Origin: a plasmid
Strand: one strand, 5' to 3'
DNA length: 64,000 nt
Sequence record: NZ_OX291475.1
Below are positions 9,532-30,356 of this stretch, in pieces. A model generated the notes under the pieces. That model did no database searches, was not told where the DNA came from, and saw only the letters and a list, made by a program, of their open reading frames with translations. Position numbers and translations under genes: made by a program. Each line of letters opens with the position of its first letter. The stretch's first letter is position 1.

Positions 9532-10308
9532 TCATGTTCCTTTCAGCATGGCAATGGCGTCAAGTTCCGGCATCGAGAACTGCACCCGATGCCGCGCCGC
9601 CACATCCAGCGCAAACACCTTCGTATAGACCTCCGTGGAGCTGATCGACTTGTGTCCCATCAGCGACTGCAGCACCTTGAGTGGAATTCCGGCATACAGC
9701 ATGTGCATCGCGTAGCTGTGGCGGAAGGTGTGCGGGGTGATAGGCACCGAGAACGTCACACCATCCTGCGCTGCCGCGTCCACGGCCTCGGCCAGCCAGC
9801 TGCGCACCGTTCTGTCAGTGATTGTCCACAGGCGTACTTTCTCCATGCGACCGGTTTTGGGGTCCCGGCGTTCCAGCGGAATTTTCAGCGTGGCCACCAT
9901 GGTCTGCAGCTGTGCAACGTATAACGGATCAGACAGCGGCACCAGGCGGTGTGCCGAGCTGCCGGCCGGGAGCCGGCCTGCGGTTCGCGCGGTTTTCTCT
10001 GCCCGCTGCTTGAGCGTGGCCAACTGCGCGAACGGGTAGGGCGATGCCAGCGAAAAATCCCCCCTTGTCAGCGCCAGCGCTTCGTTAATCCGGGCGCCGG
10101 TATTCCATAGCGTAGCCAGCAACATCTTGCGGTGCAGATCCGGCACATAGTGGAACAGGGCGCTCACCTCCGGAGCCAGCAGGTATTTCGGCAGTTCGTC
10201 CTGTACCAGTGCCATCTGGCGCAGCGCCAGCGCAGCCGGGTAGTCGATGGACACCGGCAGCTGAGCTGCAGTTCCTGGCTGCTGCCCCAGGGTAACGAGC
10301 CCAGCCAT
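9532..10308 (-). CDS. Tyrosine site-specific recombinase (XerC/D-FimB-like, short form)
   Basis: C-terminal catalytic motifs HTFRHSYAMHML ... LMGHKSISSTEVYTKV (R-H-R-Y family). 258 aa. Confidence 0.85.
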   Translation of the reverse strand: MAGLVTLGQQPGTAAQLPVSIDYPAALALRQMALVQDELPKYLLAPEVSALFHYVPDLHRKMLLATLWNTGARINEALALTRGDFSLASPYPFAQLATLKQRAEKTARTAGRLPAGSSAHRLVPLSDPLYVAQLQTMVATLKIPLERRDPKTGRMEKVRLWTITDRTVRSWLAEAVDAAAQDGVTFSVPITPHTFRHSYAMHMLYAGIPLKVLQSLMGHKSISSTEVYTKVFALDVAARHRVQFSMPELDAIAMLKGT

Positions 10309-11126
10309 CAGGATGCCTCTCCGGCTGGAGGTATGTTCAGTGCTGACGCTATAATTTCCCGGTTTTCCTCATTACGCAAGTTACCGAAATAGCCCACTTC
10401 CAGGCGCAGGGACTGGTGTGCCGCCTCTATAAGGTCAGAGACGCTCTGCAGGGCATTCTGTAGCTGCTGCGCGGATATCGCTCTTGGCACATCATGTTCA
10501 TCCACGCCGTTACGGTGTACCAGGTCGTTTCGCCAGTCTGCGATCATGCTCAGCGGCTCAACCGGCCAGATGGGGGGGATGTGCAGCACGGCGCCGAAAT
10601 AGCGCTCAATGGTTTCAACGTTATGAAACGTCATTCGGGAAACAAAATTCTGCGCCGCAGGCCGGAACAGGGACAGATCCATGTCACGGGCAGCATGTTT
10701 TTCCGGATTTTTGATTCGTTTGGACTTCATGTAATACGCATCCCTGAAGCGTTTAAGGGGCCAGTCATGTTCTAGCAGGGCCCTGGCGCAGTACATCAGG
10801 TACGCCTCCATGACAGTCACGGCATGGACGAAAGACATCCTGTACACCAGTTCAGGCTGCTCTTTATCGAGCAGGGCATATAACTTCTTCAGCTCCTGAT
10901 TTGCGTGCAGGTAACGCTGATGAACATTGTTCAGGGAAGCCACAAACAGCCCGTGTTCATGATCCCACTGAGCCTGATCGGCAAGCGCCTCCTGCTCCCA
11001 GTAGTACAAGTTCGCGGCATGCTCCCATTCTTCAGAGTCGGGGACAACATCCGGGTAATTTTCCGCAAGCCATTCATCAAATCGTTCAGCTTCAATATCC
11101 AACATCAGGTCTTTCATGCTTCCCAT
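10308..11126 (-). CDS. Hypothetical protein with HEPN-like RNxxxH motif, first gene of recombinase operon
   Basis: WRNDLVHRNG (R-x4-H). Start MGSMKDL at 11126. Stop overlaps the recombinase start. Confidence 0.45.
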   Translation of the reverse strand: MGSMKDLMLDIEAERFDEWLAENYPDVVPDSEEWEHAANLYYWEQEALADQAQWDHEHGLFVASLNNVHQRYLHANQELKKLYALLDKEQPELVYRMSFVHAVTVMEAYLMYCARALLEHDWPLKRFRDAYYMKSKRIKNPEKHAARDMDLSLFRPAAQNFVSRMTFHNVETIERYFGAVLHIPPIWPVEPLSMIADWRNDLVHRNGVDEHDVPRAISAQQLQNALQSVSDLIEAAHQSLRLEVGYFGNLRNEENREIIASALNIPPAGEAS

Positions 11127-11223
11127 AACACCTGTACCTCTCTGTGTGGTTTTATAAATGAGAAATCCCGACGCTGGCGACGGCGCAGGCATCTCGGGGT
11201 GAACGCCGGCACCACTAAACCGC

Positions 11224-12502: not shown

Positions 12503-15124
12503 ATGTATCCCGTATTTGAGAATGGATCCTGCTGGGTCAAGGTGGATTTTCATCTTCATACCCGTGCAGATAAAGAATTTCGCTATGTCGGGGAACCCGA
12601 CAGCTATATTCGTGACTACGTCAGTGCCCTGAAAGCGGCTGATGTGGGAGTAGGCGTGATCACCAATCATAATAAATTCGATCCCGGAGAGTTTAAGGCA
12701 TTACGCAAAGCCGCGCGCCGTGAAGGCACTGAGCTGCTTCCCGGCGTGGAACTCTCTGTCAATGATGGTCAGGCCGGCGTGCACACGCTTGTGGTGTTTG
12801 CCGATGACTGGTTCATCAACCCGCAGCAGACGAATCATATTGAAAGTTTCCTGACGGCCACGTTTGCGGGCGTTGATAATTTTGAGAACGAAAATGCCCG
12901 TTCAATAGAAAATATCACTCAGACCATCCAGCGCCTTGACCGGTATGAACGGGATTACTTCATTGTGTTTGCCCACGTTGAAGCCCCTAACGGGTTATGG
13001 CGCGGGTTCAGCCCTGGCCGGATCGGGGAGCTTTTTGATAATGAGCTTGTCCGCCGGCGCGTGATGGGGTTTCAGAAGGTGATGACCCACGACCTGCGGG
13101 TTAAAATTCACGGCGTTCTTGGTAGGCGCTATCCTGCAGAAGTCCAGGGATGCGATGCCAAAACGCTGGATGACATCGGTGCCAGAAAAGTCGCCAGCTA
13201 TCTGAAGCTGGGTGATTACAGTTTTGACGCTGTCCGATTTGCGCTGCAGGATTTCCCGCACCGCGTCAGCGGGGAAAAACCGGCCCTTATCCACAGCCAT
13301 ATCCGTCAGATAGCATTCGAGGGAGCCGGTTCGCTCGGCGGAACCGTGGTGAAATTATCTCCGGAGCTGAACACCCTGATTGGGATCCGCGGCAGCGGAA
13401 AATCCTCCATACTTGAAGGGATCCGCTATGCCCTGGACATTCCGTTTGGCGAGAAGGCATCTGACCGCGACTACAAAGAAAATCTGATCAGTAATTTACT
13501 CAAAAGCGGGGGGAAAATTACCGTCGACGCCGTGTGCCGTCTCGGGCGGGCATATCAGATAACCCGAATTTTCGGCCAGGAACCGCAGGTCATTTTTGAC
13601 GGCCAGGCCAGGCACGGGGTCGCGCTCCGGGAAACGGTTCTGCACAAGCCAGTGTATTTTGGCCAGAAAGATCTGTCCAATACCGGCGCAGGGTTTGAAC
13701 ACGATCTGATTGAAAAGCTGGTCGGTGAGCGACTGGTTCCCGTGCGAGAAAAAATCCGGCAGCAGAATACAGTCGTGCTCGACAGGTTACGCCTGCTTCG
13801 TCGCCTGAAAAAATCGGGAGAAGCACTCTCAGAATGGCAGGCAAAAAAGGCGGATGCGCAGTTCCGCCTGCGCTTTTATGCCCAGCATGGCATGGAAGAA
13901 AAACTGGAGCGGCAGACCACCTTCGGACGGGACGAGCGCTATCTCAGCAATACCTCTGCCCAGGCAACCCAAGCGCTGGACAGTCTGCAGGACGGTATCA
14001 GGGAGACACTCGACGAGTTGAAGCAGGAGCAGAAACATGAATCAGCGCATAACCAGGCCGAGATCGATGACTATTGTGAGGGATATGATCGCTTCACGAC
14101 CCATCTCAACTCCCTGAACACCATCGTCGACGGCGCCCGCCAGCTCCTCACAGAACTCGATACTAAGCAGCAGGCCTTCCAGCAGAAAAAGCAGGCGCTG
14201 ACGGAGGAATTTGCCGAAATAGAGCGAGGCCTTGCAGAAGAGTTGCGGCGGGCCGGGGTGGAAAAAGCCGATCCGGCCGACTTTCTGAAACTAAAGGCTG
14301 GGCTGGAAACTGCGGAAGAGAAAATAGATGAGTTAACCCGGGCTGAAACCAGTCAAGCGTTACAGGAGAAGAGCCTCACAGAAGCGCTGAGCCGGTTGGC
14401 TGAACTCTGGGGGGAAGAGTATCACGAAATTGAAGCCGTGCTGGCCACCATCAACCAGGCAGATTCGCCCTTGAAGATCGTGCCGGCCTTTGCAAGCGAC
14501 AAAAAAGCCATGCAATCTTTTCTGAAAGAAACGTTTATTGGCAGCCGGTTGCGGGAAAGTACCTACCAGACCGTAGCTGACGGCTTCAGCGATTTTGGCG
14601 AACTCTGGCTGAACAGGGATAAACTCCAGGGGATTATCAACGGCTCTGCTGAGACGTTCGGTGTGTATCTGGAACAGCAGATAGAATCGCTAATCGTCTG
14701 GCAGATCCCGAATACCTACACCATTGAATTCCGCGGAAAACCACTGGAACAACACTCGCTGGGTCAGCGCGCCTCCGCATTAATGCTGTTTGTCCTGAAT
14801 CAGCAGGATAATGATGTGGTGATCATCGATCAGCCCGAAGACGACCTGGACAATCAGACGATTTATGACGACGTGATTAAAATCATCAGGACGATGAAAC
14901 CCCGCACCCAATTTATCTTTGCCACTCACAATGCCAACATTCCGGTTCTGGGTGACGCAGAGAATGTCTGTGCCTGTGAATATTCAGACGGAAAGATCCA
15001 GGCTGCCGGTGGAGGCGTGGATGCACCTCATGTACAACAGCACATTATTTCGGTGATGGAGGGCGGGCGAGAAGCCTTTGAGCGGCGCAGGGAAGTTTAC
15101 GGCTCATGGCTCAGTAAAACCTGA
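12503..15124 (+). CDS. PHP-domain phosphoesterase fused to SMC-like ABC ATPase (Ppl-like anti-phage architecture)
   Basis: N-terminal DFHLHTRAD...ITNHN...HTLVVFADD (PHP metal-binding His/Asp). Walker A GIRGSGKSS. Long coiled-coil. C-terminal LSxGQR signature, Walker B VIIDQPEDDLD and H-loop ATHN. 873 aa. Confidence 0.8.
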   Translation: MYPVFENGSCWVKVDFHLHTRADKEFRYVGEPDSYIRDYVSALKAADVGVGVITNHNKFDPGEFKALRKAARREGTELLPGVELSVNDGQAGVHTLVVFADDWFINPQQTNHIESFLTATFAGVDNFENENARSIENITQTIQRLDRYERDYFIVFAHVEAPNGLWRGFSPGRIGELFDNELVRRRVMGFQKVMTHDLRVKIHGVLGRRYPAEVQGCDAKTLDDIGARKVASYLKLGDYSFDAVRFALQDFPHRVSGEKPALIHSHIRQIAFEGAGSLGGTVVKLSPELNTLIGIRGSGKSSILEGIRYALDIPFGEKASDRDYKENLISNLLKSGGKITVDAVCRLGRAYQITRIFGQEPQVIFDGQARHGVALRETVLHKPVYFGQKDLSNTGAGFEHDLIEKLVGERLVPVREKIRQQNTVVLDRLRLLRRLKKSGEALSEWQAKKADAQFRLRFYAQHGMEEKLERQTTFGRDERYLSNTSAQATQALDSLQDGIRETLDELKQEQKHESAHNQAEIDDYCEGYDRFTTHLNSLNTIVDGARQLLTELDTKQQAFQQKKQALTEEFAEIERGLAEELRRAGVEKADPADFLKLKAGLETAEEKIDELTRAETSQALQEKSLTEALSRLAELWGEEYHEIEAVLATINQADSPLKIVPAFASDKKAMQSFLKETFIGSRLRESTYQTVADGFSDFGELWLNRDKLQGIINGSAETFGVYLEQQIESLIVWQIPNTYTIEFRGKPLEQHSLGQRASALMLFVLNQQDNDVVIIDQPEDDLDNQTIYDDVIKIIRTMKPRTQFIFATHNANIPVLGDAENVCACEYSDGKIQAAGGGVDAPHVQQHIISVMEGGREAFERRREVYGSWLSKT

Positions 15125-15299
15125 TGCCATCAGGTTCACTGAGCATCCAGAAAAAGCCGCAAATGCGGCTTTTTCTGTTTCCGATTATTGGGGTTTTACC
15201 GAATCTCATGGTGGTATGTGTGATCCACCGTGGACGCACTCTACAGATATCATTATATTAGTCAGTAAAAATAGACAAACCGCAAGGGATGGGATTTAC

Positions 15300-15614
15300 A
15301 TGACACAGCTTGAATATAATGAGTTACTCGCCTTATACCGCGCCCGTCTGGATATTGCCTCACAAAGAGGTACCTACGCCTCGATGCTGCAAAGTATCCT
15401 TCGAGACATCAGTAATAAGGTCAAACGTGGCGAACTGACAAAAGAGCAAGGTCTCTCGCTGGCGAAAATACTGTTCAATATTTCCGTAGAACAGTACCAC
15501 ATTGATGGTGTTGAGTCTCTCAATGAGGAAATCAGAAAGGGGTCTCTTGATATTTCTTACGATGCCGCTGACGCTATGGCTGAAAAAATAGCCGCCATGA
15601 AGGCAAATAGATAA
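15300..15614 (+). CDS. Small helical hypothetical protein downstream of the PHP-ATPase
   Basis: ORF 15078..15614 trimmed to MTQLEYNELL at 15300 (the upstream part overlaps the ATPase gene). Stop overlaps the next ATG. Confidence 0.45.
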   Translation: MTQLEYNELLALYRARLDIASQRGTYASMLQSILRDISNKVKRGELTKEQGLSLAKILFNISVEQYHIDGVESLNEEIRKGSLDISYDAADAMAEKIAAMKANR

Positions 15615-16141
15615 TGGCCGATCTCACAACTATCGAATCAGCAGCATCCGCAGTCTGGTCAACACGTGATTATCTTTATACTGCAGGCGTTTTTGTGGCC
15701 GTCATTTCAGCGTGGATTGCAGGTTATAGCGCATATAAAACTGGGAGGCGTGACCTGAATTCATTAGGGGATTCGGAAATCAAGACGTTTGAAATGATTG
15801 CAAAAGCTGAAAAGGATTTTGCTGAGTTCAATGCACGTCTTACAGATAAAATTGATTTATTTGATGCTGATCCTGCGAACAAAGGTAAAGAGTATCCCCT
15901 CACTGGTGCGGAAACAGGACTGAGTGATTTCTACACACAAAGCGTGTTGAATGCCTATGAAATTGCCTGCCAACGTTACTTGGACAAAAAACTCGATGGC
16001 GAGAGATTTAAAAAAACATATCGAACGAGGCTTAATAAGATTTGTTCCTCACGAGCATATAACCCCATAATTGATGATGGGAGCCATAACTACGCAGCAT
16101 TGAAAAAAGTAAACGACATCTTTAACAATCCTGAAAAGTAA
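15614..16141 (+). CDS. Membrane-anchored hypothetical protein
   Basis: N-terminal hydrophobic helix (LYTAGVFVAVISAWIAGYSAY). 175 aa. Translationally coupled (TAATGG). Confidence 0.5.
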   Translation: MADLTTIESAASAVWSTRDYLYTAGVFVAVISAWIAGYSAYKTGRRDLNSLGDSEIKTFEMIAKAEKDFAEFNARLTDKIDLFDADPANKGKEYPLTGAETGLSDFYTQSVLNAYEIACQRYLDKKLDGERFKKTYRTRLNKICSSRAYNPIIDDGSHNYAALKKVNDIFNNPEK

Positions 16142-16147
16142 ATTTAA

Positions 16148-16186
16148 AGAGCCTGCCAAACACGCAGGCTCTTTAAAAAAAGACAT
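16148..16186. terminator. Bidirectional terminator between convergent genes
   Basis: AAAGAGCCTGCCAAACACGCAGGCTCTTTAAAAAAAG hairpin. Confidence 0.65.
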
Positions 16187-16442
16187 CAATACTTTTTTGC
16201 CACATTCCGTAAGGAGTGACAACGTCGTTAAATAGCCTTTCATGAATAAAATCGGTGATAAGTAAGAGAATATCGGACAGAACGCTAAAGAATCAACAGG
16301 AAAGGGAAAGTGTAAGGCGGTCAGTAACGCCCATTTACAGCTGTTAGCCCCATATACAGGCGTGGACGGTTGATAACCAAGAGATAAAATCGGTACAAAG
16401 TGGTCTACATGGAGTAAACCACTTCAAGAGGGGTTCCTAAGG

Positions 16443-17117
16443 CTAAAGAAAGATAAATCCCTTCGTAGTAAGCAATGGCCGGGTTCCTAAAGGTACCGTG
16501 AGGTTATATTTTCCAATATTATTTTCCTCATCGTAAGTATCGCCTAATCCTAAAATAACTTCCCTGTTACATAACTCAGGAATATCACGACAAAGACTGG
16601 CGATAATATTGGTTAAATTATAAATAGATGTATATAAATCAAATCCTCCTGAATATAATTCACCCTTATGCAGGATTTGAGGATCATTCGCGAACCCGTC
16701 TAAATTATCAAAAACAAAACTCAAGTCTTGGCAATATGTAATCAGTGAATTTTTTTCTTCTAACTTCCAGGGTTGTGATTTTCCAGACATAAAAGCACGC
16801 AAAGCCTTCGCAACTATATGGATAGGGATAATTATCATTTCATTATGACTAAGTAACATATTTTCATGATTAAAGACAACACGGATCTCATCAATATCAC
16901 CTTGGTGATGATAATAGTTTCTTAAATGCTTGAGGATTTTGAACTCAGGATAACTCATTAAGTCAGTATCAAAATCTTGCTTCAACCTGTCATTTAAAGA
17001 ATGCAAACTATTTAAAAACGTATAAAGTGTTCTACCATTTCTTTTATGGGCACAAGTCACATCCATTAGCTCGAAGCTGCTTTCAAAAAATCTGTCAATG
17101 TACTTTAAATTATCCAT
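16443..17117 (-). CDS. AT-rich hypothetical protein with HEPN-like LRNYYHH motif (Abi-like)
   Basis: 224 aa, ~33% GC. Contains ILKHLRNYYHHQGD (R-x4-H). Confidence 0.5.
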   Translation of the reverse strand: MDNLKYIDRFFESSFELMDVTCAHKRNGRTLYTFLNSLHSLNDRLKQDFDTDLMSYPEFKILKHLRNYYHHQGDIDEIRVVFNHENMLLSHNEMIIIPIHIVAKALRAFMSGKSQPWKLEEKNSLITYCQDLSFVFDNLDGFANDPQILHKGELYSGGFDLYTSIYNLTNIIASLCRDIPELCNREVILGLGDTYDEENNIGKYNLTVPLGTRPLLTTKGFIFL

Positions 17118-17464
17118 CTTCTCTCTCTGCTCTGGTTCGGACAGTTAACCGTCTACGTATCGCTTTCAGGCCATTGATGTTGCATCGGGTCACCTCACAT
17201 TATCAGGGGCTGATAATATCTACTTATTGATATTTTGCAGCCATAGCAAGAGGATTACCAGGCTAATCGGTAAAAGAGGTGATTACCTAATCAAGATACG
17301 AAACTTCTAACAAAATTCACAGAACCGCTCGGCGAGGTATGGAACACGCCGGGCGTCCAGGTTCATACGCGATTCGAAACATGCGCTGTGAAGGGAAACT
17401 GGCCGCTCCCCGAGAGGGATATAGCTGACCGATGCTTCCGATGAAAAGGTAGGTCACCGAGGGT

Positions 17465-18202
17465 TCATTGTAAGGGGCGGTGTTTATTCTTATGATATTC
17501 CTGCACGGTGGAATTTATCGCTTCCACATATCGCGAGATTTCATCCACAGCGAAATTCAGGAAATTATTCTTGAGCAGGACTGTATTGAAGCAAGTGACC
17601 GAAATTGCCTCGCTTGCCTTGCTAATAGCGCGCAACTGTCTTTTCTCGCTGTCTTTTTTTGCACGTGTCATTTTCAGCAGCTGATGATACTCGTGAGCAA
17701 CACCGTCGGCATGTGCCATTATATTCCTGATGATAGTCAGGTGATCAACATCGGCAATATCCTTCTTTCCGTAGATGGTGGTCAGCATGTCGTGGGTTTT
17801 TTCAATCATTCCCCCCTTGAGTATTTCCGTATGCCCAGAAAGGCGAATCATCAATTCCAGGCAATTACTCATACGTTGCTCGAACAGGCCAAATATTGTC
17901 AAAAATGCAGAGCGCCGTGTCAGTTGGGTAATTAAATTAACGTACTGTAATTTGACTTCCTCGACATCGTTACCTACACACGACCCGCAGGAGTAATAGG
18001 TATACCATACCTGTCTGTAAGATCCATCCTCATTCTCCAGGTAGTCCTCAATTATATCTTCCGTGATAAAATCAGGCTCATCCACTGCTTTAACTTCGCG
18101 AATGATATTAGCTTCAGCCTGTTGAGCAAGCATCTTCATGACAGAAATTGACGAAGACGCTTCCCATAAAGGAACACTAAACAGACACTCTAGTTTTGCC
18201 AC
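17465..18202 (-). CDS. Hypothetical protein with HEPN-like IIRNIMAHADG motif
   Basis: 245 aa. RNIMAH matches Rx4H. Confidence 0.5.
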   Translation of the reverse strand: MAKLECLFSVPLWEASSSISVMKMLAQQAEANIIREVKAVDEPDFITEDIIEDYLENEDGSYRQVWYTYYSCGSCVGNDVEEVKLQYVNLITQLTRRSAFLTIFGLFEQRMSNCLELMIRLSGHTEILKGGMIEKTHDMLTTIYGKKDIADVDHLTIIRNIMAHADGVAHEYHQLLKMTRAKKDSEKRQLRAISKASEAISVTCFNTVLLKNNFLNFAVDEISRYVEAINSTVQEYHKNKHRPLQ

Positions 18203-18325
18203 GACATCATCCTAATTTTCAAAAATTAAACTGCTCAACAGTATGACGGCTTGTGCTTGTTTCATCCTGCTCTGGATGGGCGTCTTTACCCTCACTGCCC
18301 ATTCAGAGCAAAAGCTGATTTACTA

Positions 18326-19396
18326 TCAGGCCTTTTTAACAGCAGTGGCTATTGGCTGACCACCTTGTTGCGTACTCTGCTCCGGCTCAAATGTAACCCT
18401 GTCATGCACCGCATAAGCGTTCATGCCCCCCACAAAGGCACCGGCAAAGGCAGTAAAGGTCTTTTTGTCCTTTTCGCTTTGAATCATCACTATCTGGCTT
18501 GCCACGTTAATATTAACAACAACGCCAGTATGACGGGTTTCCAGCAGTGTATTTCCCAGCCACTGTTCACCACTAATAATGTCAAGTTCGGAAAGGCCGG
18601 CTGGCAGTCTCTTGTTTTTCCACAACGAGTGCGGACTGCATAGCTCGTTTACATTTTGGGTGTTTTCAATAATGCTCAACAATTTTAGATTAGACGGGTT
18701 GATCCATCGAATCACCTCGATACAGCGATGATATTCACGGGCAACTTTATTAATGGCCTGTTCGACAGAGTAGGTTTTATCAGAACGCCATAATGGCTCG
18801 TGATGGGATATTCTGTTACGTAACGTATTTATATCCCGGAGATCTGCACCAATTCTGTTTATTGATAATGCTTTGCCATTTTTATTGGCATGGGGAAAAA
18901 CGCGTGAAGTCAAGTCCGGCCATAAAGAAAGATAGTTGCAATAATTGGCATGAGTACGATCATATTTCTTGTCGACCAATGACACCCAAAATCCGAGTGT
19001 TAACTTTGAGATGAGATTTTCTGTTGTGTGCGGCTTTCCATCTTTATTAAGTTGACCTTTTGCCGCCGCGATAGCTTTAAACGATGTATTGTTGTTTGCC
19101 TGCGTCATTACAGTTACAAACCACTTATCATCGATATTCCCTTTCTTCTGCGCCCAGGTTGGTTGAGGATGGAGCCGTTTTATTTCATCTTCTTCGAAAG
19201 CCTGTTTGGCCCCGCAAATGGCATTCCTTAATGAGACCTCGATCACCTGCAGTGCGGGAAGGAATGCGCCGGCGAGCTGTTTATTCCATAGATAAATGCC
19301 CAGGCACTCTTCTGGTGTGGCGCCGTTGAAAACGGAAGATTGGTAGGTTGCAAATCGGTGCTGTGATATAGAGCTTAAAATAGCCGCAATCGTCAT
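18326..19396 (-). CDS. Abi_2 (AbiD/AbiF)-like abortive-infection protein with C-terminal extension
   Basis: 356 aa. TLRNRISHHEPLW resembles the conserved Abi_2/HEPN motif. Has an extra ~100-aa C-terminal domain. Confidence 0.55.
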   Translation of the reverse strand: MTIAAILSSISQHRFATYQSSVFNGATPEECLGIYLWNKQLAGAFLPALQVIEVSLRNAICGAKQAFEEDEIKRLHPQPTWAQKKGNIDDKWFVTVMTQANNNTSFKAIAAAKGQLNKDGKPHTTENLISKLTLGFWVSLVDKKYDRTHANYCNYLSLWPDLTSRVFPHANKNGKALSINRIGADLRDINTLRNRISHHEPLWRSDKTYSVEQAINKVAREYHRCIEVIRWINPSNLKLLSIIENTQNVNELCSPHSLWKNKRLPAGLSELDIISGEQWLGNTLLETRHTGVVVNINVASQIVMIQSEKDKKTFTAFAGAFVGGMNAYAVHDRVTFEPEQSTQQGGQPIATAVKKA

Positions 19397-19780
19397 AATA
19401 TCTCCTTGATGTCCGATGAGTATATCAAAGCGCTTGACGTGAGCAAAAATTTGAAGGATGATGTGCCCCAGAGACAGGATCTCTAACTGTGTGAGCGACT
19501 ATGCCGGTGATAAATCACCCGCTAGGTTGCGAAATTTTCAAAGAAGGCTTCCTCCGGGGAGCCTTTTTTGATTGTGTCGATCAATGCACTAGCCAGCATT
19601 CTCCACTCACCTTCACCATATTCATCCGTATTTCAATCAAGCCCGTCACTCAGCCTACAAGTTCCGAAGAATTAGTTTGCCTAGACACGCCTGTGAATAA
19701 CGCTTTGTTCGAAATCCCGCACCACCACTGAAGCTATAGCTATACTTTGGCCATGTCGACACAAAAGGATCACCTGCCTA

Positions 19781-20466
19781 TGTGTGGCCGTTTTGCCCAG
19801 TTCCATAGCCGAGAGGAATTTATCACCGCCCTGCGATCCGAAACGCCAATGATCACCACCGGTGACTGGCATGCACGGTATAACGTTGCCCCTGGCACGC
19901 CGGTACCGCTGTTCCATCATCATGATGATCAGCTGCAGCTAACACCGGTTGACTGGGGCTATGCGCCGATATGGTGGCGAGAGCAGGGAAAACCGCCACT
20001 CATCAACGCCCGCGTCGAAACCGCCGCAAGCAGCCGGATGTTCACGCCGCTCTGGAAACATGGCCGTGCGTTGGTACCGGCATCAGGTTGGTACGAATGG
20101 AAAAAGTCCCCGGACAATCCGAAACTGAAGCAACCGTATTTCATCTATCCCGCCGATCGCAGCCCGCTGTTCTTCGCCGCGTTGTGCTCCACTGATCCGG
20201 AAGAAGCTGGCAGCTTCGTCATCATCACGGCCGCCAGTCATGACGGTCTGGCGGATATTCATGATCGGCGCCCACTGGCGCTGCCGGCAGCCGCCGCACG
20301 CGACTGGCTCGATAGCCGGTTGACCCCGCCGCCAGGCGACATGTTGGCCGACGTTTATAGCCTGCAGGCGGATGATTTCAACTGGCAACCGGTCTCGCCG
20401 GCGGTAGGTGCCGTTCGCAATGACAATCCCTCACTCATCCTTGCCATCGATACACCAACGGTCTGA
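19781..20466 (+). CDS. SOS-response-associated peptidase (SRAP/YedK-like abasic-site processing protein)
   Basis: Begins MCGRF (catalytic Cys2). Conserved SRAP layout. ORF 19747..20466 trimmed to the ATG at 19781. Confidence 0.8.
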
Positions 20467-20662: not shown

Positions 20663-21079
20663 ATGAACACTAGAGAATTGTACTTTTTTTCACCAGGTCA
20701 GCCGGTAAAACTCCCACTCTACGGGACACCATGTCCGGCAGGCTTCCCCAGCCCTGCCGACGATTACATTGAACAATCCATTGATTTAAATGATTTTATC
20801 CGACATCCGGCCGCCACGTATTTTATCCGCGCATCGGGAGAGTCAATGAGTGAGGGCGGCATACTGTCAGGAGATTTGCTGATTGTCGATCGGGCTGAAA
20901 AACCCGTGCATGGTAGCATCGTGATCGCCGCGGTCGACGGCGAGTTTACTGTCAAGCGGCTGCTGCTGACACCCAGGGTTTGTCTGGCGCCGATGAATCC
21001 TGCCTACAGTCCTATTTATCCCGAAACGCTGGAAATTTTCGGGGTGGTGATCCACGCCCTGCACTCATTTGGAAGGTGA
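20663..21079 (+). CDS. umuD: UmuD-like translesion polymerase accessory subunit (LexA-like S24 peptidase)
   Basis: 138 aa. Ser/Lys dyad context ([11 protein letters not shown] ... FTVKRL). Immediately precedes umuC. Confidence 0.85.
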
Positions 21080-21081
21080 TC

Positions 21082-22016
21082 ATGTTTATGCTGGCTGACG
21101 TCAATTCGATGTACTGTGCCTGCGAACAGGTCTTCCGGCCGGATCTGAAAGGCCGTCCGGTGGCCGTGCTTTCGAATAACGACGGTGCCCTGGTGGCGAT
21201 CAACCGGGAGGGAAAACAACTCGGTCTTAAACGCGGCATGCCATTTTTTCAGGCCAAAGAAATCATTAAAAATCAAAATGTCACTGTTTTCTCTAGCAAT
21301 TATTCTTTGTACGGCGACATGTCGGCGCGCTGCATGACGATTTTAGAATCTCTCGCGCCGGCGATTACGATCTACAGCATCGACGAGGCATTCCTTCACG
21401 TTGCCGGCATCGATGCCACAGAGTCATTCGAAGACTATGGCCGGCGCGTTCGCGATACCGTTTTACAGCAGACGGGACTCACCTGCGGGATCGGTGTCGC
21501 CCAGACGATGACGCTTGCCAAACTCGCGAATCACGCTGCGAAAACCTGGCCGGCCACCGGTGGGGTTGTCGATCTGACGAACCGCGATCGACAACGCAAA
21601 TTGATGGGGCTGCTGCCAGTCAACGAAGTTTGGGGATGTGGGCGCCAGTTGACTAAAAAGCTGGCTGCGATGGGGATCACCACAGCACTGCAGCTGGCCG
21701 ACAGCAACCAGGCGTTGATCCGCAGGACGTTCGGGGTTGTGCTCGAGCGCACCGTGCGTGAACTGAACGGTGTGCCATGTATCTCAATCGATGCGCTGCC
21801 GGCAAAGCAGCAGATCATCGTCAGCCGGTCATTTGGCCAGCGCGTTACGCAGCTGCAGGACATGCGCCAGGCGGTGTGCCAGTACGCCGAGCGGGCCGCC
21901 GAAAAACTTCGCCGAGAGAAGCAATATTGCCGGCACATTTCGGTGTTCGCGCGAACCAGCCCATTTTCGCCTCATGATCCCTATTACGCGAACAGCAACA
22001 GCGTGCGGCTCATGCT
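21082..22016 (+). pseudogene. umuC: umuC 5' portion, interrupted by transposon insertion
   Basis: Collinear with E. coli UmuC up to ..YYANSNSVRLML. The frame then runs into the transposon IR. Confidence 0.85.
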
Positions 22017-22038
22017 GGGGTCAGTTTGGATATCGAAA

Positions 22039-23419
22039 ATTATTGTACTATAAGGGCTTCCCCGGCATGTCAACGCCGGTGTTTACGGTTTCTGTCTGCA
22101 CTATAGTAAAAAAATAAAGGGGAGAGACTGCGGTACTATAAACGGTCATGATGAATCGTCATCGATTCGGACCCTGATGAAAGACGCTCGTGAGGCTCTA
22201 GTTCGTTAGTCGGGTACACTTGCCCTGTACAATAAGCAGATATACCTCACGGGGTCTAACCCTTTATCATCAACGAGTTGCAGAACAGATGGTCATACAG
22301 CTTTGTACTTTAGCTGGCTGAGTACAACCTGAAATCATCACCGTAATGCAATGATGCCCAGCACAGTCTTGCATTTTTGGCAGCGATGGCAACAACAGCG
22401 CGCCAGTATCCTCTGCGTTCGACCAGTGAGCAGACCCAACGACTGAATAAATCAGTCCTTTTCTCCGCCCCGATCAGTACCGAGCGGGCACCCTGAACCA
22501 GAAGTGTTCTCAGATACGAATCGCCAGCTTTCGTTATCCTGCCAAGCTTCGACTTTCCGCCGCTGCTGTACTGCGATGGTGTCAGTCCCAGCCAGGCTGC
22601 CAGCTGGCGCCCATTCTTAAAATCATGTGCATTACCGATACTGGCGACCAGCGCACAGGCCGTTGTGGGGCCAACGCCCTTCAATTCCATCAGCCGCTGA
22701 CTGCGATGATCTGTTTTGGCCATGCGGGACAAAATTCGGTCATATTCAGCGATGTTATCTTCAATGCGAGCAACGTGCTCCAGCAAATCATCAACACATT
22801 GCTGAACCTGAAGTGGTAAAGAATTCTTCTGCTCAAAAACTATGTGGCGCAGGGCATCTGTACTTTGTGGGGCGATAACGCCGAATTCAGATATCAACCC
22901 CCGGAGACGATTATATGTTGCTGTTTTCTCTTCGATAAAACCCTGTCGGGTACGATGCAGACACTGCATTGCCTGCTGGCTCTCATCCTTAACCGGCACA
23001 AACCGCATATGTGGGCGACGAACCGCCTCGCAGATAGCCTGAGCATCAGCTGCATCATTTTTCCCTGATTTACCAGCCATGCGGTAAGGCGATACAAATT
23101 TAGCGGCCATCAGACGCGGCTCATGACCATACTGCCGAAACAGTCTTGCCCAGTAATGAGCCCCGGAGCACGCCTCCATCCCGATAACACAGGGCGGCAA
23201 ACCAGCAATCAGCCCGGGAAGAGCTGCGCGGGTTACTCTGGATTTAACCAGAACGGTTTTGCCATTCTGGTCAACGCAATGAACAGCGAACACATTTTTA
23301 GCAAGATCGATACCGACAGTAGTAATGGTCATAACGAATCCCTCCGGGGTTGTGTTTACCCCATGATTGCACAAGAGTTAATCAGGCACATAATCAGGGG
23401 AAGTCCCTTCCATTCGTTA
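22039..23419 (-). mobile_element. IS110-family (IS1111-group-like) insertion sequence, copy 1 (1381 bp), inside the left IR of the outer transposon
   Basis: Identical to the 39131-40511 copy. Splits the IR into a 22-nt outer part and a 16-nt inner part (AGGTTATTTTTTGACC at 23420-23435). Confidence 0.7.
22310..23374 (-). CDS. IS110-family transposase (DEDD)
   Basis: 354 aa. N-terminal VGIDLAKNVFAV plus C-terminal DDFKNGRQLAAWLGLTPSQYSSGGKSKLGRITKAGDSYLR, typical of IS110/IS1111 transposases. Confidence 0.85.
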   Translation of the reverse strand: MCNHGVNTTPEGFVMTITTVGIDLAKNVFAVHCVDQNGKTVLVKSRVTRAALPGLIAGLPPCVIGMEACSGAHYWARLFRQYGHEPRLMAAKFVSPYRMAGKSGKNDAADAQAICEAVRRPHMRFVPVKDESQQAMQCLHRTRQGFIEEKTATYNRLRGLISEFGVIAPQSTDALRHIVFEQKNSLPLQVQQCVDDLLEHVARIEDNIAEYDRILSRMAKTDHRSQRLMELKGVGPTTACALVASIGNAHDFKNGRQLAAWLGLTPSQYSSGGKSKLGRITKAGDSYLRTLLVQGARSVLIGAEKRTDLFSRWVCSLVERRGYWRAVVAIAAKNARLCWASLHYGDDFRLYSAS

Positions 23420-29315: not shown

Positions 29316-29672
29316 CTATCGCTCAGCCAATACGAAACCGGCATTGGCTGATGCCACAACCGAGACTAACACAAATGGCTCGGTACCTGTATTTCGCGCC
29401 CCGTGCACTTGGCCCGGTCTTGCCACGGCTATCTCACCTTCCCTGAGGGCACGAACAATCCCATTGCCCTGAAAGTAATCAGCCATTCCCGACAAAACAG
29501 TCCACGTGTCTTGGCCGTGAGGATGAATGTGAGCCGCAATTTCCTGCCCGGGATGGACATGCCAAACCACGATAATTGAGTCTCGGGTTTCAAGCACAAC
29601 GGAACGAATAGGCTCGCCTTCGGACGGCTGAACATACTCGGCTACAGAAAATATTCTCGATTCAACAGTCAT
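29316..29672 (-). CDS. Cupin-domain protein
   Basis: HVHPGQEIAAHIHPHGQDTW...GEIAVARPGQVHGARN (two cupin His motifs). Start MTVESRIF at 29672 with an AAAGAGGGA RBS. Confidence 0.65.
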   Translation of the reverse strand: MTVESRIFSVAEYVQPSEGEPIRSVVLETRDSIIVVWHVHPGQEIAAHIHPHGQDTWTVLSGMADYFQGNGIVRALREGEIAVARPGQVHGARNTGTEPFVLVSVVASANAGFVLAER

Positions 29673-30063
29673 CGGAGATCCCTCTTTCACAGTTGTCGTT
29701 ACGGTCTTCATCGTCGGCATCCTGACGCACGGCGGGCAATTGCTGGAGCAACGCCGGCAGCCATTCCTGTACCGTCTCCCACACCACATCGAGGTTGATG
29801 TCGAAATAGCCGTGAGCCATGCGATTACGCATATTGCGCATGCTGCGCCACGGCACGTCGGCATGCGCCTGGGTGAACTCGACGTAGCCATCCATCACCT
29901 TTGTGGCCGCCTCGCCGATGACGATCAGGCTCATGATGACGGCCTGCTGGGTGCGCTTGTCGGCCAAGAAGTCGTCCTTGGCCATCCCTTCCACGAAGCT
30001 GCGCGCATCGGTTGCGGCCTGCTGAATGTGGTCGAGGTAATCGGGCAGGCGGTTCTCGCTCAT
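29662..30063 (-). CDS. hepT: HepT-like HEPN ribonuclease toxin (DUF86)
   Basis: RNRMAHGY (Rx4HxY motif). 133 aa. Overlaps the mntA stop. Confidence 0.8.
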   Translation of the reverse strand: MSENRLPDYLDHIQQAATDARSFVEGMAKDDFLADKRTQQAVIMSLIVIGEAATKVMDGYVEFTQAHADVPWRSMRNMRNRMAHGYFDINLDVVWETVQEWLPALLQQLPAVRQDADDEDRNDNCERGISDDC

Positions 30064-30356
30064 ATCGGTTGCGCCTCCGCGAGCACCTTGGCCCGGAACT
30101 TCGGCGGCAGGTCGCCGGGAGTCAGCAGATCGACGTCAACGCCGAGCAGCGATTTCAGTTCTTCTTCCAAATCGCCCAAGTCCAACAACGTGGCACCGGG
30201 CAGCGCATCGACCAACAGGTCGAGGTCGCTGCCATCCCGGTCGGTGCCATGCAGCACCGAGCCGAAGACGCGCGGGTTCGCGGCGCGAAAGCGGCCTACC
30301 GCTTCACGCACTGCGCTTCGCTTCATGTCAAGCACAACAGACGGTCGCATGCGCAT
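30060..30356 (-). CDS. mntA: MntA-like minimal nucleotidyltransferase antitoxin
   Basis: GSVLHGTDRDGSDLDLLVD (GSx10DxD NTase motif). 98 aa. Confidence 0.8.
   Translation of the reverse strand: MRMRPSVVLDMKRSAVREAVGRFRAANPRVFGSVLHGTDRDGSDLDLLVDALPGATLLDLGDLEEELKSLLGVDVDLLTPGDLPPKFRAKVLAEAQPI

What the first reader, a model, noticed from the sequence alone, without database searches (positions are those of the whole stretch)
16443..19396. Tandem array of three divergent HEPN-motif (RNxxxH) genes: candidate abortive-infection island
Three consecutive minus-strand genes of 224, 245 and 356 aa each contain an R-N-x3-H(H) motif in a predicted helical context (LRNYYHH, IIRNIMAH, LRNRISHH). This is the HEPN RNase signature, and the third gene looks like Abi_2/AbiD-AbiF. 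GC content falls stepwise from ~42% to ~33%, which suggests separate acquisitions stacked at one site. Each gene has its own upstream gap. The first two have no family I can name.
Basis: partly seen in the sequence, partly recalled or inferred. Interest (0 to 1): 0.7.

Follow-up and report, generated by a model that had tools for sequence, protein, structure and literature searches.

The report
Three stacked solo HEPN defence genes
A Serratia conjugative plasmid carries three adjacent but unrelated genes that each carry the HEPN ribonuclease signature: one belongs to a known anti-phage family, and two belong to uncatalogued families that most likely act as stand-alone "suicide on infection" RNases.

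Summary
Three minus-strand genes (224, 245 and 356 aa) each carry R-N-x3-H, and the motif is invariant across each gene's homologues. The window is Serratia marcescens plasmid pQC08_2.

- **Gene 3** is a clear Abi_2 (AbiD/AbiF) protein of the PD-T4-5 type. PD-T4-5 is an experimentally shown abortive-infection gene. Gene 3 has an extra, weakly cold-shock-like C-terminal domain.

The three families show no detectable similarity to one another. Each turns up elsewhere alone, in prophage accessory slots, ICEs, islands and plasmids, with changing neighbours. They are therefore independent single-gene cassettes stacked in a variable cargo region beside SRAP-umuDC, not a paralogous array or an obligate operon.

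The GC claim is only partly right: 44.9%, 43.6%, then 33.3%, which is one step.

RNase activity and phage defence are inferred for genes 1 and 2, not shown. Verdict: two new families of a known kind (solo HEPN Abi). Moderate interest.

The parts
18326..19396 (-). g3: 356-aa Abi_2 (AbiD/AbiF-like) protein of the PD-T4-5 type. HEPN core in aa ~4-257, plus a C-terminal extension.
   Evidence: Pfam Abi_2 E=5.1e-10, 40.4 bits against GA 25.6. PADLOC PD-T4-5 E=9.9e-32 over aa 4-257, and AbiD 6.5e-6. 102 homologues, most annotated 'Abi family protein'. A 78%-identical orthologue sits next to SRAP-umuDC on related Serratia plasmids.
18800..18820 (-). g3 HEPN motif R193-N194-R195-I-S-H198-H199.
   Evidence: R193, N194, R195, H198, H199 and E200 are invariant in 33 homologues down to 25% identity.
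19223..19240 (-). g3 N-terminal conserved E53-x2-L56-R57-N58 motif of the Abi_2 family.
   Evidence: Invariant columns E53, L56, R57, N58. This stretch aligns weakly to the solved 'Abi family protein' 8vz6.
18329..18544 (-). g3 C-terminal ~70-aa domain (aa ~285-355), possibly cold-shock/OB-like (RNA-binding). Boundaries are approximate.
   Evidence: The family profile weakly matches Unr cold-shock domains 6y6m, 4qqb and 1wfq (E=0.007-0.1). The PADLOC PD-T4-5 profile stops matching at aa 257. No Pfam hit. Tentative.
17465..18202 (-). g2: 245-aa protein of an uncatalogued HEPN-like family (PHROG 21382, unknown function). Layout: long N-terminal helix, beta-hairpin insert with conserved Cys pair C72/C75, then a helical bundle that carries the motif.
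17711..17728 (-). g2 HEPN motif R159-N160-I-M-A-H164.
   Evidence: N160 and H164 are invariant. R159 is at least 90% conserved among 43 homologues down to 36% identity; at least one shown sequence has a deletion spanning that position. The motif lies in model helix 153-164.
16443..17117 (-). g1: 224-aa protein of a rare, uncatalogued HEPN-like family. N-terminal helical bundle with the motif, plus a mixed alpha/beta C-terminal half. GC is only 33%.
16905..16922 (-). g1 HEPN motif R66-N67-Y-Y-H70-H71.
   Evidence: R66, N67, H70 and H71, with H39 and D43 of the preceding helix, are the only invariant columns across 26 sequences down to ~20% identity. The motif lies in model helix 57-72.
17118..17464 (.). 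347-bp spacer between g2 and g1 (GC 0.487). Unique to this plasmid.
   Evidence: Similarity to the Kacie_13 g1 copy begins only 4 bp upstream of the g1 ATG and ends 54 bp after its stop. No tandem repeats and no Rfam match inside this spacer (the two weak Rfam matches in the region scanned lie at 16114-16175 and 19541-19575), so no type III antitoxin-like RNA.
18203..18325 (.). 123-bp spacer between g3 and g2. No terminator-like site predicted.
   Evidence: One search finds no terminator here. Read-through from g3 into g2 cannot be excluded.
16143..16177 (-). Strong terminator-like hairpin (14-bp stem plus T-run) 266 bp downstream of g1. It also sits just after the convergent + strand ORF 15614-16141.
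19747..20466 (+). Flank: SRAP (YedK-like) gene, divergent from g3 and followed by umuD/umuC. It is the conserved anchor of the variable cargo region.
   Evidence: Pfam SRAP 2.5e-53. In related Serratia plasmids, different cargo occupies the site next to SRAP-umuDC: Abi_2+TIR, a RiboL-PSP-like HEPN gene, or hypothetical genes plus a colicin.
12503..15124 (+). Flank: TrlF-family AAA-like ATPase (Ppl-like), followed by two small ORFs (15078/15300-15614 and 15614-16141). It marks the other side of the island.
   Evidence: NCBIfam TrlF_fam_ATP 2.8e-161 and Ppl_antiphage 4.5e-48, the latter below its cut-off. PADLOC Ppl 1.1e-37.

Best explanation
The locus is a small defence island on the conjugative Serratia marcescens plasmid pQC08_2. 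It consists of three independently acquired, single-gene HEPN-type abortive-infection cassettes. They are stacked in the variable cargo region between a TrlF/Ppl-like ATPase gene and the SRAP-umuDC block.

Shown here:
- Each protein carries a strictly conserved R-N-x3-H motif on a helix.
- g3 is a member of Abi_2/PD-T4-5.
- g1 and g2 found two families with no curated model. Their predicted folds resemble HEPN domains most closely.
- Each family occurs elsewhere without the other two and without a conserved partner.

Inferred mechanism, by analogy with HEPN RNases in general and with the solo HEPN defence protein HepS and PD-T4-5 in particular:
1. Each protein is made constitutively as an inactive oligomer.
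2. A phage-derived cue is sensed by the non-HEPN parts. Candidates are the beta-hairpin/Cys insert in g2, the alpha/beta C-terminal half in g1, and the cold-shock-like C-terminal domain in g3.
3. Sensing brings two Rx4H motifs together into a composite, metal-independent RNase site.
4. The active site cleaves tRNA, rRNA or mRNA. Translation stops and the infection is aborted before progeny are released.

Three unrelated HEPN families would be expected to have different triggers and/or RNA targets. That would widen the phage range protected and make escape by a single phage mutation or inhibitor harder.
For: - **Genes and motifs:**
- **Identity of the replicon:** 100% match to AP028558.1, conjugative MOBP/MPF_I.
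- **g3:** Pfam Abi_2 above the gathering score and PADLOC PD-T4-5 at 1e-31. PD-T4-5 was isolated as a plasmid-borne gene that gives Abi-type defence and is a distant AbiF/D relative (PMC9519451).
- **Motif invariance:** g1; g2; g3.
- **Models:** pLDDT 87.5 and 93.4.
- **Sub-threshold Pfam hits fall in the HEPN clan:** Ribonuc_2-5A for g1 relatives, covering the motif helix; HEPN_RiboL-PSP and HEPN_Swt1 for g2 relatives.
- **Calibration:** bona fide Abi_2 proteins cross-hit the same two models at the same level.
- **Independence:** no profile similarity among the three families.
 - A g1 homologue at 82% identity lies on another plasmid without g2 or g3.
 - g1 relatives lie at prophage ends beside tail-fibre and integrase genes and next to Gabija-like or GmrSD/HEPN genes, and in islands with RES and CbtA/CbeA toxins.
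 - g2 relatives lie in ICEs, islands, 248 PLSDB plasmids and pHCM2-type replicons, with changing neighbours.
- **No partner-type elements:** no MNT, no small antitoxin-like ORF conserved next to them, no tandem-repeat RNA.
Against: - I could not inspect the structural superpositions, so it is not shown that the RNxxxH of g1 and g2 superimposes on the catalytic motif of the HEPN templates.
- No curated HEPN model reaches its threshold for g1 or g2.
- No PADLOC defence model matches g1 or g2.
- Neither gene is found in the INPHARED phage collection.
- No terminator is predicted between g3, g2 and g1, and no consensus promoter is found in the spacers. Co-transcription is therefore possible.
- In several places a g2 relative lies close behind another gene: a trypsin-like protease, an HTH protein, a GIY-YIG nuclease. 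This leaves room for partner dependence.
- Nothing here measures RNase activity, toxicity or phage resistance.
Confidence: 0.65

Rival explanations
1. The genes, or some of them, are toxins of plasmid-addiction (toxin-antitoxin) modules. On this reading their role is post-segregational killing and plasmid maintenance rather than phage defence. The antitoxin would be an unrecognised small ORF or RNA, or an intramolecular domain.
Against: There is no MNT or other conserved small neighbour next to g1, g2 or g3, either here or in about 8-10 other contexts each. No tandem repeats or antitoxin RNA were found. Many relatives lie in prophage accessory slots and chromosomal islands, where addiction makes less sense. 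The two roles are not mutually exclusive.
Confidence: 0.12
2. g3-g2-g1 (or g3-g2) form one co-transcribed, cooperating system, possibly together with the neighbouring TrlF/Ppl-like ATPase. On this reading the HEPN proteins work as hetero-oligomers, or one regulates another.
For: All three lie on the same strand. No terminator is predicted in the 123-bp and 347-bp spacers, and a strong terminator appears only after g1. HEPN RNases act as dimers. g2 relatives often sit just downstream of another gene. HEPN nuclease + ATPase systems exist, for example RemAIN, mentioned in PMC13043305.
Against: The trio is found only in this plasmid within PLSDB. Each family occurs without the others. The g3 orthologue in sister plasmids is followed by a TIR gene instead. 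TrlF-family genes occur on more than 100 E. coli plasmids, but no E. coli record matched the g1-g3 part of the query at the >=85% DNA identity that the search detects. g1 has a sharply different GC content, and its similarity to the Kacie_13 copy ends at the gene borders.
Confidence: 0.1
3. g1 and/or g2 are not catalytic HEPN RNases. They would be helical-bundle proteins in which the conserved R-N-x3-H serves another role, such as ligand, nucleotide or protein binding. Possible functions include regulation, anti-defence, or another conflict function such as exclusion of competing plasmids.
Confidence: 0.13

Closest known systems
PD-T4-5 / AbiD-AbiF (Pfam Abi_2, PF07751)
   Same: g3 matches the PD-T4-5 model at 1e-31 and Abi_2 above the gathering score. 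It is plasmid-borne and single-gene, and it has the conserved E..LRN and RNxxHH motifs. PD-T4-5 was selected experimentally for Abi-type defence against T4.
   Different: g3 has a ~100-aa C-terminal region that the PD-T4-5 profile does not cover. That region is weakly cold-shock-domain-like. g1 and g2 show no profile similarity to this family.
HepS, the 'HEPN solo' abortive-infection protein of Salmonella prophage Gifsy-1 (PDB 9oik)
   Different: There is no detectable sequence similarity (PDB profile searches). g1 and g2 have different insertions. Trigger, oligomeric state and RNA target are unknown here.
HepT/DUF86-type HEPN toxins of HEPN-MNT toxin-antitoxin systems (PDB 7ae2, 8xdj, 5yep, 1ylm)
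   Same: They are the best structural matches for both models. For g2, 119-127 of 130-141 template residues align. They share the Rx4H motif on a helix of a helical bundle.
   Different: There is no MNT (nucleotidyltransferase) antitoxin gene next to g1 or g2, here or elsewhere. g1 and g2 are about 100 aa longer, with extra beta elements. The HepT RX4HXY tyrosine is not evident in the g1 or g2 motif. No sequence-level match.
RiboL-PSP HEPN (PF18735) and Swt1-like HEPN (PF18731)
   Same: Four and two g2-family members give sub-threshold matches (best E=6.7e-4).
   Different: g2 itself does not match, and no member is reported above threshold. Bona fide Abi_2 proteins cross-hit these models equally. 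The hits therefore indicate superfamily kinship, not family membership.
KEN/RNase L-Ire1 ribonuclease domain (Pfam Ribonuc_2-5A, PF06479; HEPN clan)
   Same: Three g1-family members match the profile segment 38-82/127 with their motif helix (E=0.003-0.04). The R-N-x3-H form of the motif is shared (my knowledge of Ire1/RNase L).
   Different: The match is below threshold (18 bits against 23.3), short, and absent for g1 itself. There is no kinase or ankyrin context.

Membership tests
HEPN superfamily (g1) | Conserved Rx4-6H motif, typically with a polar residue (N/H/D) after R | tested here: met
   R66, N67, H70 and H71 are invariant in 21 close homologues and in 26 sequences down to ~20% identity.
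HEPN superfamily (g1) | All-alpha up-down helical bundle fold carrying the motif on a core helix | tested here: inconclusive
HEPN superfamily (g2) | Conserved Rx4-6H motif with a polar residue after R | tested here: met
   N160 and H164 are invariant, and R159 is at least 90% conserved in 43 homologues.
HEPN superfamily (g2) | Helical bundle fold matching HEPN structures | tested here: met
HEPN superfamily (g1, g2, g3) | Dimerisation that forms a composite active site, and metal-independent RNase activity | not testable with these tools
   This needs biochemistry or multimer modelling.
Abi_2 / AbiD-AbiF / PD-T4-5 (g3) | Match to the family profile above its curated threshold | tested here: met
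   Pfam Abi_2 40.4 bits against 25.6. PADLOC PD-T4-5 108 bits, E=9.9e-32. All 33 aligned homologues hit Abi_2.
Abi_2 / AbiD-AbiF / PD-T4-5 (g3) | Abortive-infection phenotype against phage | not testable with these tools
   This is known for the PD-T4-5 prototype (PMC9519451) but not for this gene.
Abi_2 / PD-T4-5 (g1, g2) | Sequence or profile similarity to the family | tested here: not met
   No Pfam or PADLOC hit. hhalign probability against the g3 family alignment is 0.2% or lower.
HEPN_RiboL-PSP (g2) | Profile match above the gathering score | tested here: not met
   g2 has no hit. Four of 43 relatives are sub-threshold (best E=6.7e-4). Abi_2 proteins show the same level of cross-hit.
HEPN-MNT type II/VII toxin-antitoxin (g1, g2) | Adjacent MNT nucleotidyltransferase antitoxin gene | tested here: not met
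   No such neighbour was found in the window or in any examined context.
Type III toxin-antitoxin / Abi with RNA antitoxin | Tandem repeat array encoding an antitoxic RNA upstream of the toxin gene | tested here: not met
   TRF finds only a 19-bp, 2-copy match inside g2. Rfam gives no relevant hit.
HepS family | Sequence homology to HepS (PDB 9oik) | tested here: not met

The most novel reading that the evidence does not exclude
g1 and g2 are founding members of two previously undescribed solo-HEPN anti-phage families. Each would have its own built-in trigger sensor: the beta-hairpin with the conserved Cys pair, together with the QLTRRS patch, in g2, and the alpha/beta C-terminal half in g1.

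The g2 family would then be a widespread unrecognised defence or conflict gene of clinically important replicons. It occurs on 248 PLSDB plasmids, including S. Typhi pHCM2 and Klebsiella virulence plasmids.

Stacking three unrelated HEPN RNases would give layered immunity that is robust to escape.
Probability: 0.45. Interest if true: 0.55.

Novelty: new member of a known kind. Interest (0 to 1): 0.42.

Why it matters
- **Two testable candidates.** If g1 and g2 are confirmed, two more single-protein HEPN immune sensors would join HepS and PD-T4-5. Each is a compact system in which one ~230-aa polypeptide must both sense infection and kill. That makes them tractable for working out how HEPN RNases are kept silent and then switched on.
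- **Reach of the g2 family.** Every listed copy is annotated only as 'hypothetical protein'. It sits on hundreds of Enterobacterales plasmids, including S. Typhi pHCM2 and Klebsiella virulence plasmids, so a function there would bear on phage therapy and plasmid ecology.
- **A cargo hotspot.** The region next to SRAP-umuDC on Serratia plasmids appears to exchange defence genes.
- **Limits.** Uncharacterised HEPN families in defence islands are expected. The finding extends a known theme rather than opening a new one.

Tried and rejected
1. **Paralogous tandem array.** Rejected. hhalign between the three family alignments gives probabilities of 0.2% or lower.
2. **Conserved partner genes.**
 - The gene upstream of the Kacie_13 g1 copy is unrelated to g2.
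 - The ~216-232-aa genes downstream of three g1 relatives are unrelated to each other.
 - Trypsin-like proteases precede one g1 relative and one g2 relative. The two proteases are not similar to each other, and the pairing is absent elsewhere, so I treat it as defence-island co-location.
3. **RNA antitoxin or tandem repeats.** None found. The weak OrzO-P match (29.9 bits against 60) coincides with the terminator hairpin and is taken as chance.
4. **Sequence links to solved structures.** None for g1 or g2.
5. **Foldseek against the PDB for g1.** No significant match.
6. **AFDB Foldseek search.** The library was unavailable.
7. **Extending g1 with an exhaustive profile search.** This added a distant ~200-aa tier, but those proteins also lack any Pfam family. 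No bridge to a named HEPN family was obtained.
8. **Phage genomes (INPHARED).** No g1 or g2 homologues by tblastn.
9. **Literature search by protein accessions and PHROG id.** Nothing found.
10. **Promoter scan.** No more sites than in shuffled sequence, and none in the spacers. Transcription units remain undefined.
Full report
**Where we are.** Window 15000-20000 is 100% identical to Serratia marcescens QC08 plasmid pQC08_2. This is AP028558.1, 93.9 kb, conjugative, MOBP/MPF_I. All genes of the region are annotated there as 'hypothetical protein'.

**The observation.** The ORF list shows three consecutive minus-strand genes:
- g1: 16443-17117, 224 aa.
- g2: 17465-18202, 245 aa, GTG start. Homologues begin with the same MAKL... 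N-terminus.
- g3: 18326-19396, 356 aa.

Each has one R-N-x3-H: RNYYHH at 66-71, RNIMAH at 159-164, RNRISHH at 193-199. In the whole 64-kb window only 4 of 64 ORFs of >=150 aa contain RN...H. Three are these neighbours. The fourth (10308-11192) itself gives a sub-threshold HEPN_RiboL-PSP match. The clustering is therefore not a chance pattern.

The upstream gaps are 350, 123 and 347 bp. GC is 0.449 (g3), 0.436 (g2) and 0.333 (g1), against 0.513 for the window. All three are below the plasmid average, but there is a single sharp drop at g1, not a staircase.

**g3.**
- It passes Pfam Abi_2 (40.4 bits, gathering score 25.6).
- It matches the PADLOC PD-T4-5 model at 9.9e-32 over aa 4-257, and AbiD at 6.5e-6.
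- In 33 homologues down to 25% identity, the invariant columns include E53, L56, R57, N58 and R193, N194, R195, H198, H199, E200.
- PD-T4-5 was recovered in a functional selection as a plasmid-borne gene that gives Abi-type defence. It is described as a distant relative of AbiF/D (PMC9519451).
- The last ~100 aa of g3 are not covered by the PD-T4-5 profile. The family profile weakly matches Unr cold-shock domains there (E=0.007-0.1). This suggests a fused OB/CSD-like RNA-binding or sensing domain, but the evidence is tentative.
- A 78%-identical orthologue sits in the same position, divergent from SRAP-umuDC, on several Serratia plasmids. There it is followed by a TIR-domain gene rather than by g2 and g1.

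**g2.**
- It has no Pfam, NCBIfam or PADLOC match. It matches phrog_21382, of unknown function, at 4.4e-71.
- There are 92 homologue clusters across Enterobacterales, Aeromonas, Pseudomonas and Shewanella.
- It occurs on 248 PLSDB plasmids, including S. Typhi pHCM2 and Klebsiella virulence plasmids. Every copy listed is annotated 'hypothetical'.
- N160 and H164 are invariant and R159 is near-invariant. Further conserved patches are Y70-x-C72-x-S74-C75-x-G77, Q93-x-T95-R96-R97-S98, and C114.
- The AlphaFold model is confident (pLDDT 93.4). It has a long N-terminal helix, a beta-hairpin and a helical bundle, with the motif in helix 153-164.
- Four relatives give sub-threshold HEPN_RiboL-PSP hits (best 6.7e-4) and two give HEPN_Swt1 hits. 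As a calibration, bona fide Abi_2 proteins cross-hit exactly these two models at the same level.

**g1.**
- It has no hit in any of the four HMM libraries.
- The family is rare: 22 clusters in the word-indexed search, and 14 PLSDB plasmids.
- An exhaustive profile search of 1.84 billion representatives gave 17 hits at E<1e-30, some of them fragments. It also found a distant tier of ~200-aa proteins that match the N-terminal half. That tier also lacks any Pfam family.
- Across 26 sequences down to ~20% identity, the only invariant columns are H39, D43, R66, N67, H70 and H71.
- The model has pLDDT 87.5, with the motif in helix 57-72 and a mixed alpha/beta C-terminal half.
- Three relatives give short sub-threshold hits to Ribonuc_2-5A, the KEN domain of RNase L/Ire1 and a HEPN-clan RNase. 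The hits cover the motif helix.
- I rate the HEPN assignment at about 0.8 for g2 and about 0.7 for g1.

**Are they one system?**
- Profile-profile comparisons find no similarity among the three families.
- The exact trio is unique to this plasmid in PLSDB.
- A g1 copy at 82% protein identity lies on the Kacie_13 plasmid between unrelated genes. DNA similarity stops 4 bp before its ATG and 54 bp after its stop.
- Other g1 relatives lie in three kinds of place. Some are at prophage ends, between tail-fibre genes and the integrase or recombinase, beside variable Gabija-like or GmrSD/HEPN genes. Some are on a small plasmid next to SIR2/DUF87 genes. Others are in islands with RES, SymE and CbtA/CbeA toxins.
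- g2 relatives lie alone inside an ICE transfer region, in chromosomal islets, near retron-type RT and Tn3 elements, and on phage-plasmid-like replicons.
- g2 relatives also sit directly after a trypsin-like protease, an HTH protein or a GIY-YIG nuclease.
- No neighbour is conserved.
- No tandem-repeat or Rfam antitoxin-like RNA is present.
- The simplest reading is three autonomous single-gene cassettes. Co-transcription cannot be excluded, because no terminator is predicted until the strong hairpin at 16143-16177 and no consensus promoter is seen in the spacers.

**Setting.**
- The island is bounded on one side by a TrlF-family AAA-like ATPase, which is Ppl-like (NCBIfam 2.8e-161; PADLOC Ppl 1.1e-37), plus two small ORFs.
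- On the other side is SRAP-umuD-umuC.
- In sister Serratia plasmids, the site next to SRAP-umuDC carries other cargo: Abi_2+TIR, a RiboL-PSP-like HEPN gene, or hypothetical genes plus a colicin. It behaves as a cargo and defence hotspot.

**Mechanism (inferred).** HEPN RNases act as dimers that juxtapose two Rx4-6H motifs into one active site. In the solo HEPN protein HepS, an inactive tetramer is switched on by a phage tail-tip protein. It then cuts tRNA anticodon loops and causes abortive infection (PMC13043305).

By analogy, I propose the following for each of g1, g2 and g3:
1. The protein is made in a latent oligomeric form.
2. It senses a phage cue through its family-specific non-HEPN parts.
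3. It then cleaves cellular RNA and aborts the infection.

Three unrelated families would broaden the range of triggers and targets. Shown: genes, motifs, conservation, predicted folds, family membership of g3, and independent mobility. Inferred: RNase activity, triggers, the Abi outcome for g1 and g2, and the benefit of stacking.

**Rivals.**
- Plasmid-addiction toxins: about 0.12.
- One cooperating operon, possibly with TrlF: about 0.10.
- Non-catalytic helical proteins with another role: about 0.13.

**Novelty and interest.** g3 is a member of a known family. g1 and g2 are new families within a known superfamily, of a known kind of system (solo HEPN Abi). That makes them useful, testable candidates. 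g2 is notable for its spread on clinically relevant plasmids, but nothing here is conceptually surprising. Interest is about 0.4.

Noticed in passing
window 10308-11192 (-): This is a fourth RN...H protein (294 aa, RNDLVH). It gives a full-length but sub-threshold Pfam HEPN_RiboL-PSP match (E=2.7e-4, 21.4 bits against 28.4). It lies directly upstream of the resD resolvase gene. It is probably another HEPN gene on the same plasmid.
   Followed up: partly
window ~29514-30202 (+) (L001 26515-27203): An annotated nucleotidyltransferase + DUF86 pair, which is a classical MNT-HepT (HEPN) toxin-antitoxin module, lies next to a Tn3-family transposase. This brings the plasmid to five candidate HEPN genes.
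   Followed up: no
window 12503-16141 (+): A TrlF-family AAA-like ATPase (873 aa) has a PHP-like N-terminus and an ABC/SMC-type ATPase. It resembles the anti-phage protein Ppl but falls below its NCBIfam cut-off. Two small ORFs of unknown function follow it, and the second gives a weak DUF4760 hit. This may be a separate defence module.
   Followed up: partly
window 20980-23374: The umuC ORF here is 357 aa, against 420 aa in sister plasmids. An IS110-family transposase gene (22310-23374) follows it. umuC looks C-terminally truncated or altered, possibly through events linked to this IS.
   Followed up: no
L007-L010 4510-6729; L002 8034-9560: A trypsin-like protease gene lies immediately upstream of a g2 relative on Serratia plasmids (476 aa, PADLOC RT-protease/LmuA-like hits). 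Another lies upstream of the g1 relative on the Kacie_13 plasmid (254 aa, Trypsin_2). The two proteases are not similar to each other, and the pairing is absent in other contexts.
   Followed up: partly
window 18329-18544 (-), g3 aa ~285-355: The C-terminal domain of this Abi_2 subfamily weakly resembles the cold-shock domains of Unr (E=0.007-0.1). The PD-T4-5 profile does not cover it. It may be an RNA-binding or sensor module fused to the HEPN core.
   Followed up: partly
window 17465-18202 (-), g2 aa 70-114: The g2 family has a conserved Y-x-C-G-S-C-x-G beta-hairpin (C72, C75), an invariant C114 and a near-invariant H154. It also has an invariant R96-R97-S98 patch. These may form a metal site or a second functional surface. 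Model coordinates could not be inspected.
   Followed up: no
L024 (S. Typhi pHCM2), L025 (K. pneumoniae pKP114-Vir): g2-family genes (44-50% identity) occur on 248 PLSDB plasmids, mostly in Klebsiella (154) and Salmonella (40). Every copy listed is annotated 'hypothetical protein'. On the Klebsiella virulence plasmid the gene follows a GIY-YIG nuclease gene by 17 bp.
   Followed up: partly
L007-L010, L008, L028 (Serratia plasmids): The site beside the SRAP-umuD-umuC block carries different cargo in different Serratia plasmids. Examples are Abi_2+TIR, a RiboL-PSP-like HEPN gene, DUF4145 proteins, a colicin locus, or the trio described here. This suggests a recombination or cargo hotspot.
   Followed up: partly
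window 16114-16175 (+): A sub-threshold Rfam OrzO-P antitoxin RNA match (29.9 bits against 60, E=0.07) coincides with the bidirectional terminator hairpin between ORF 15614-16141 and g1. It is most likely a chance match to a hairpin.
   Followed up: no
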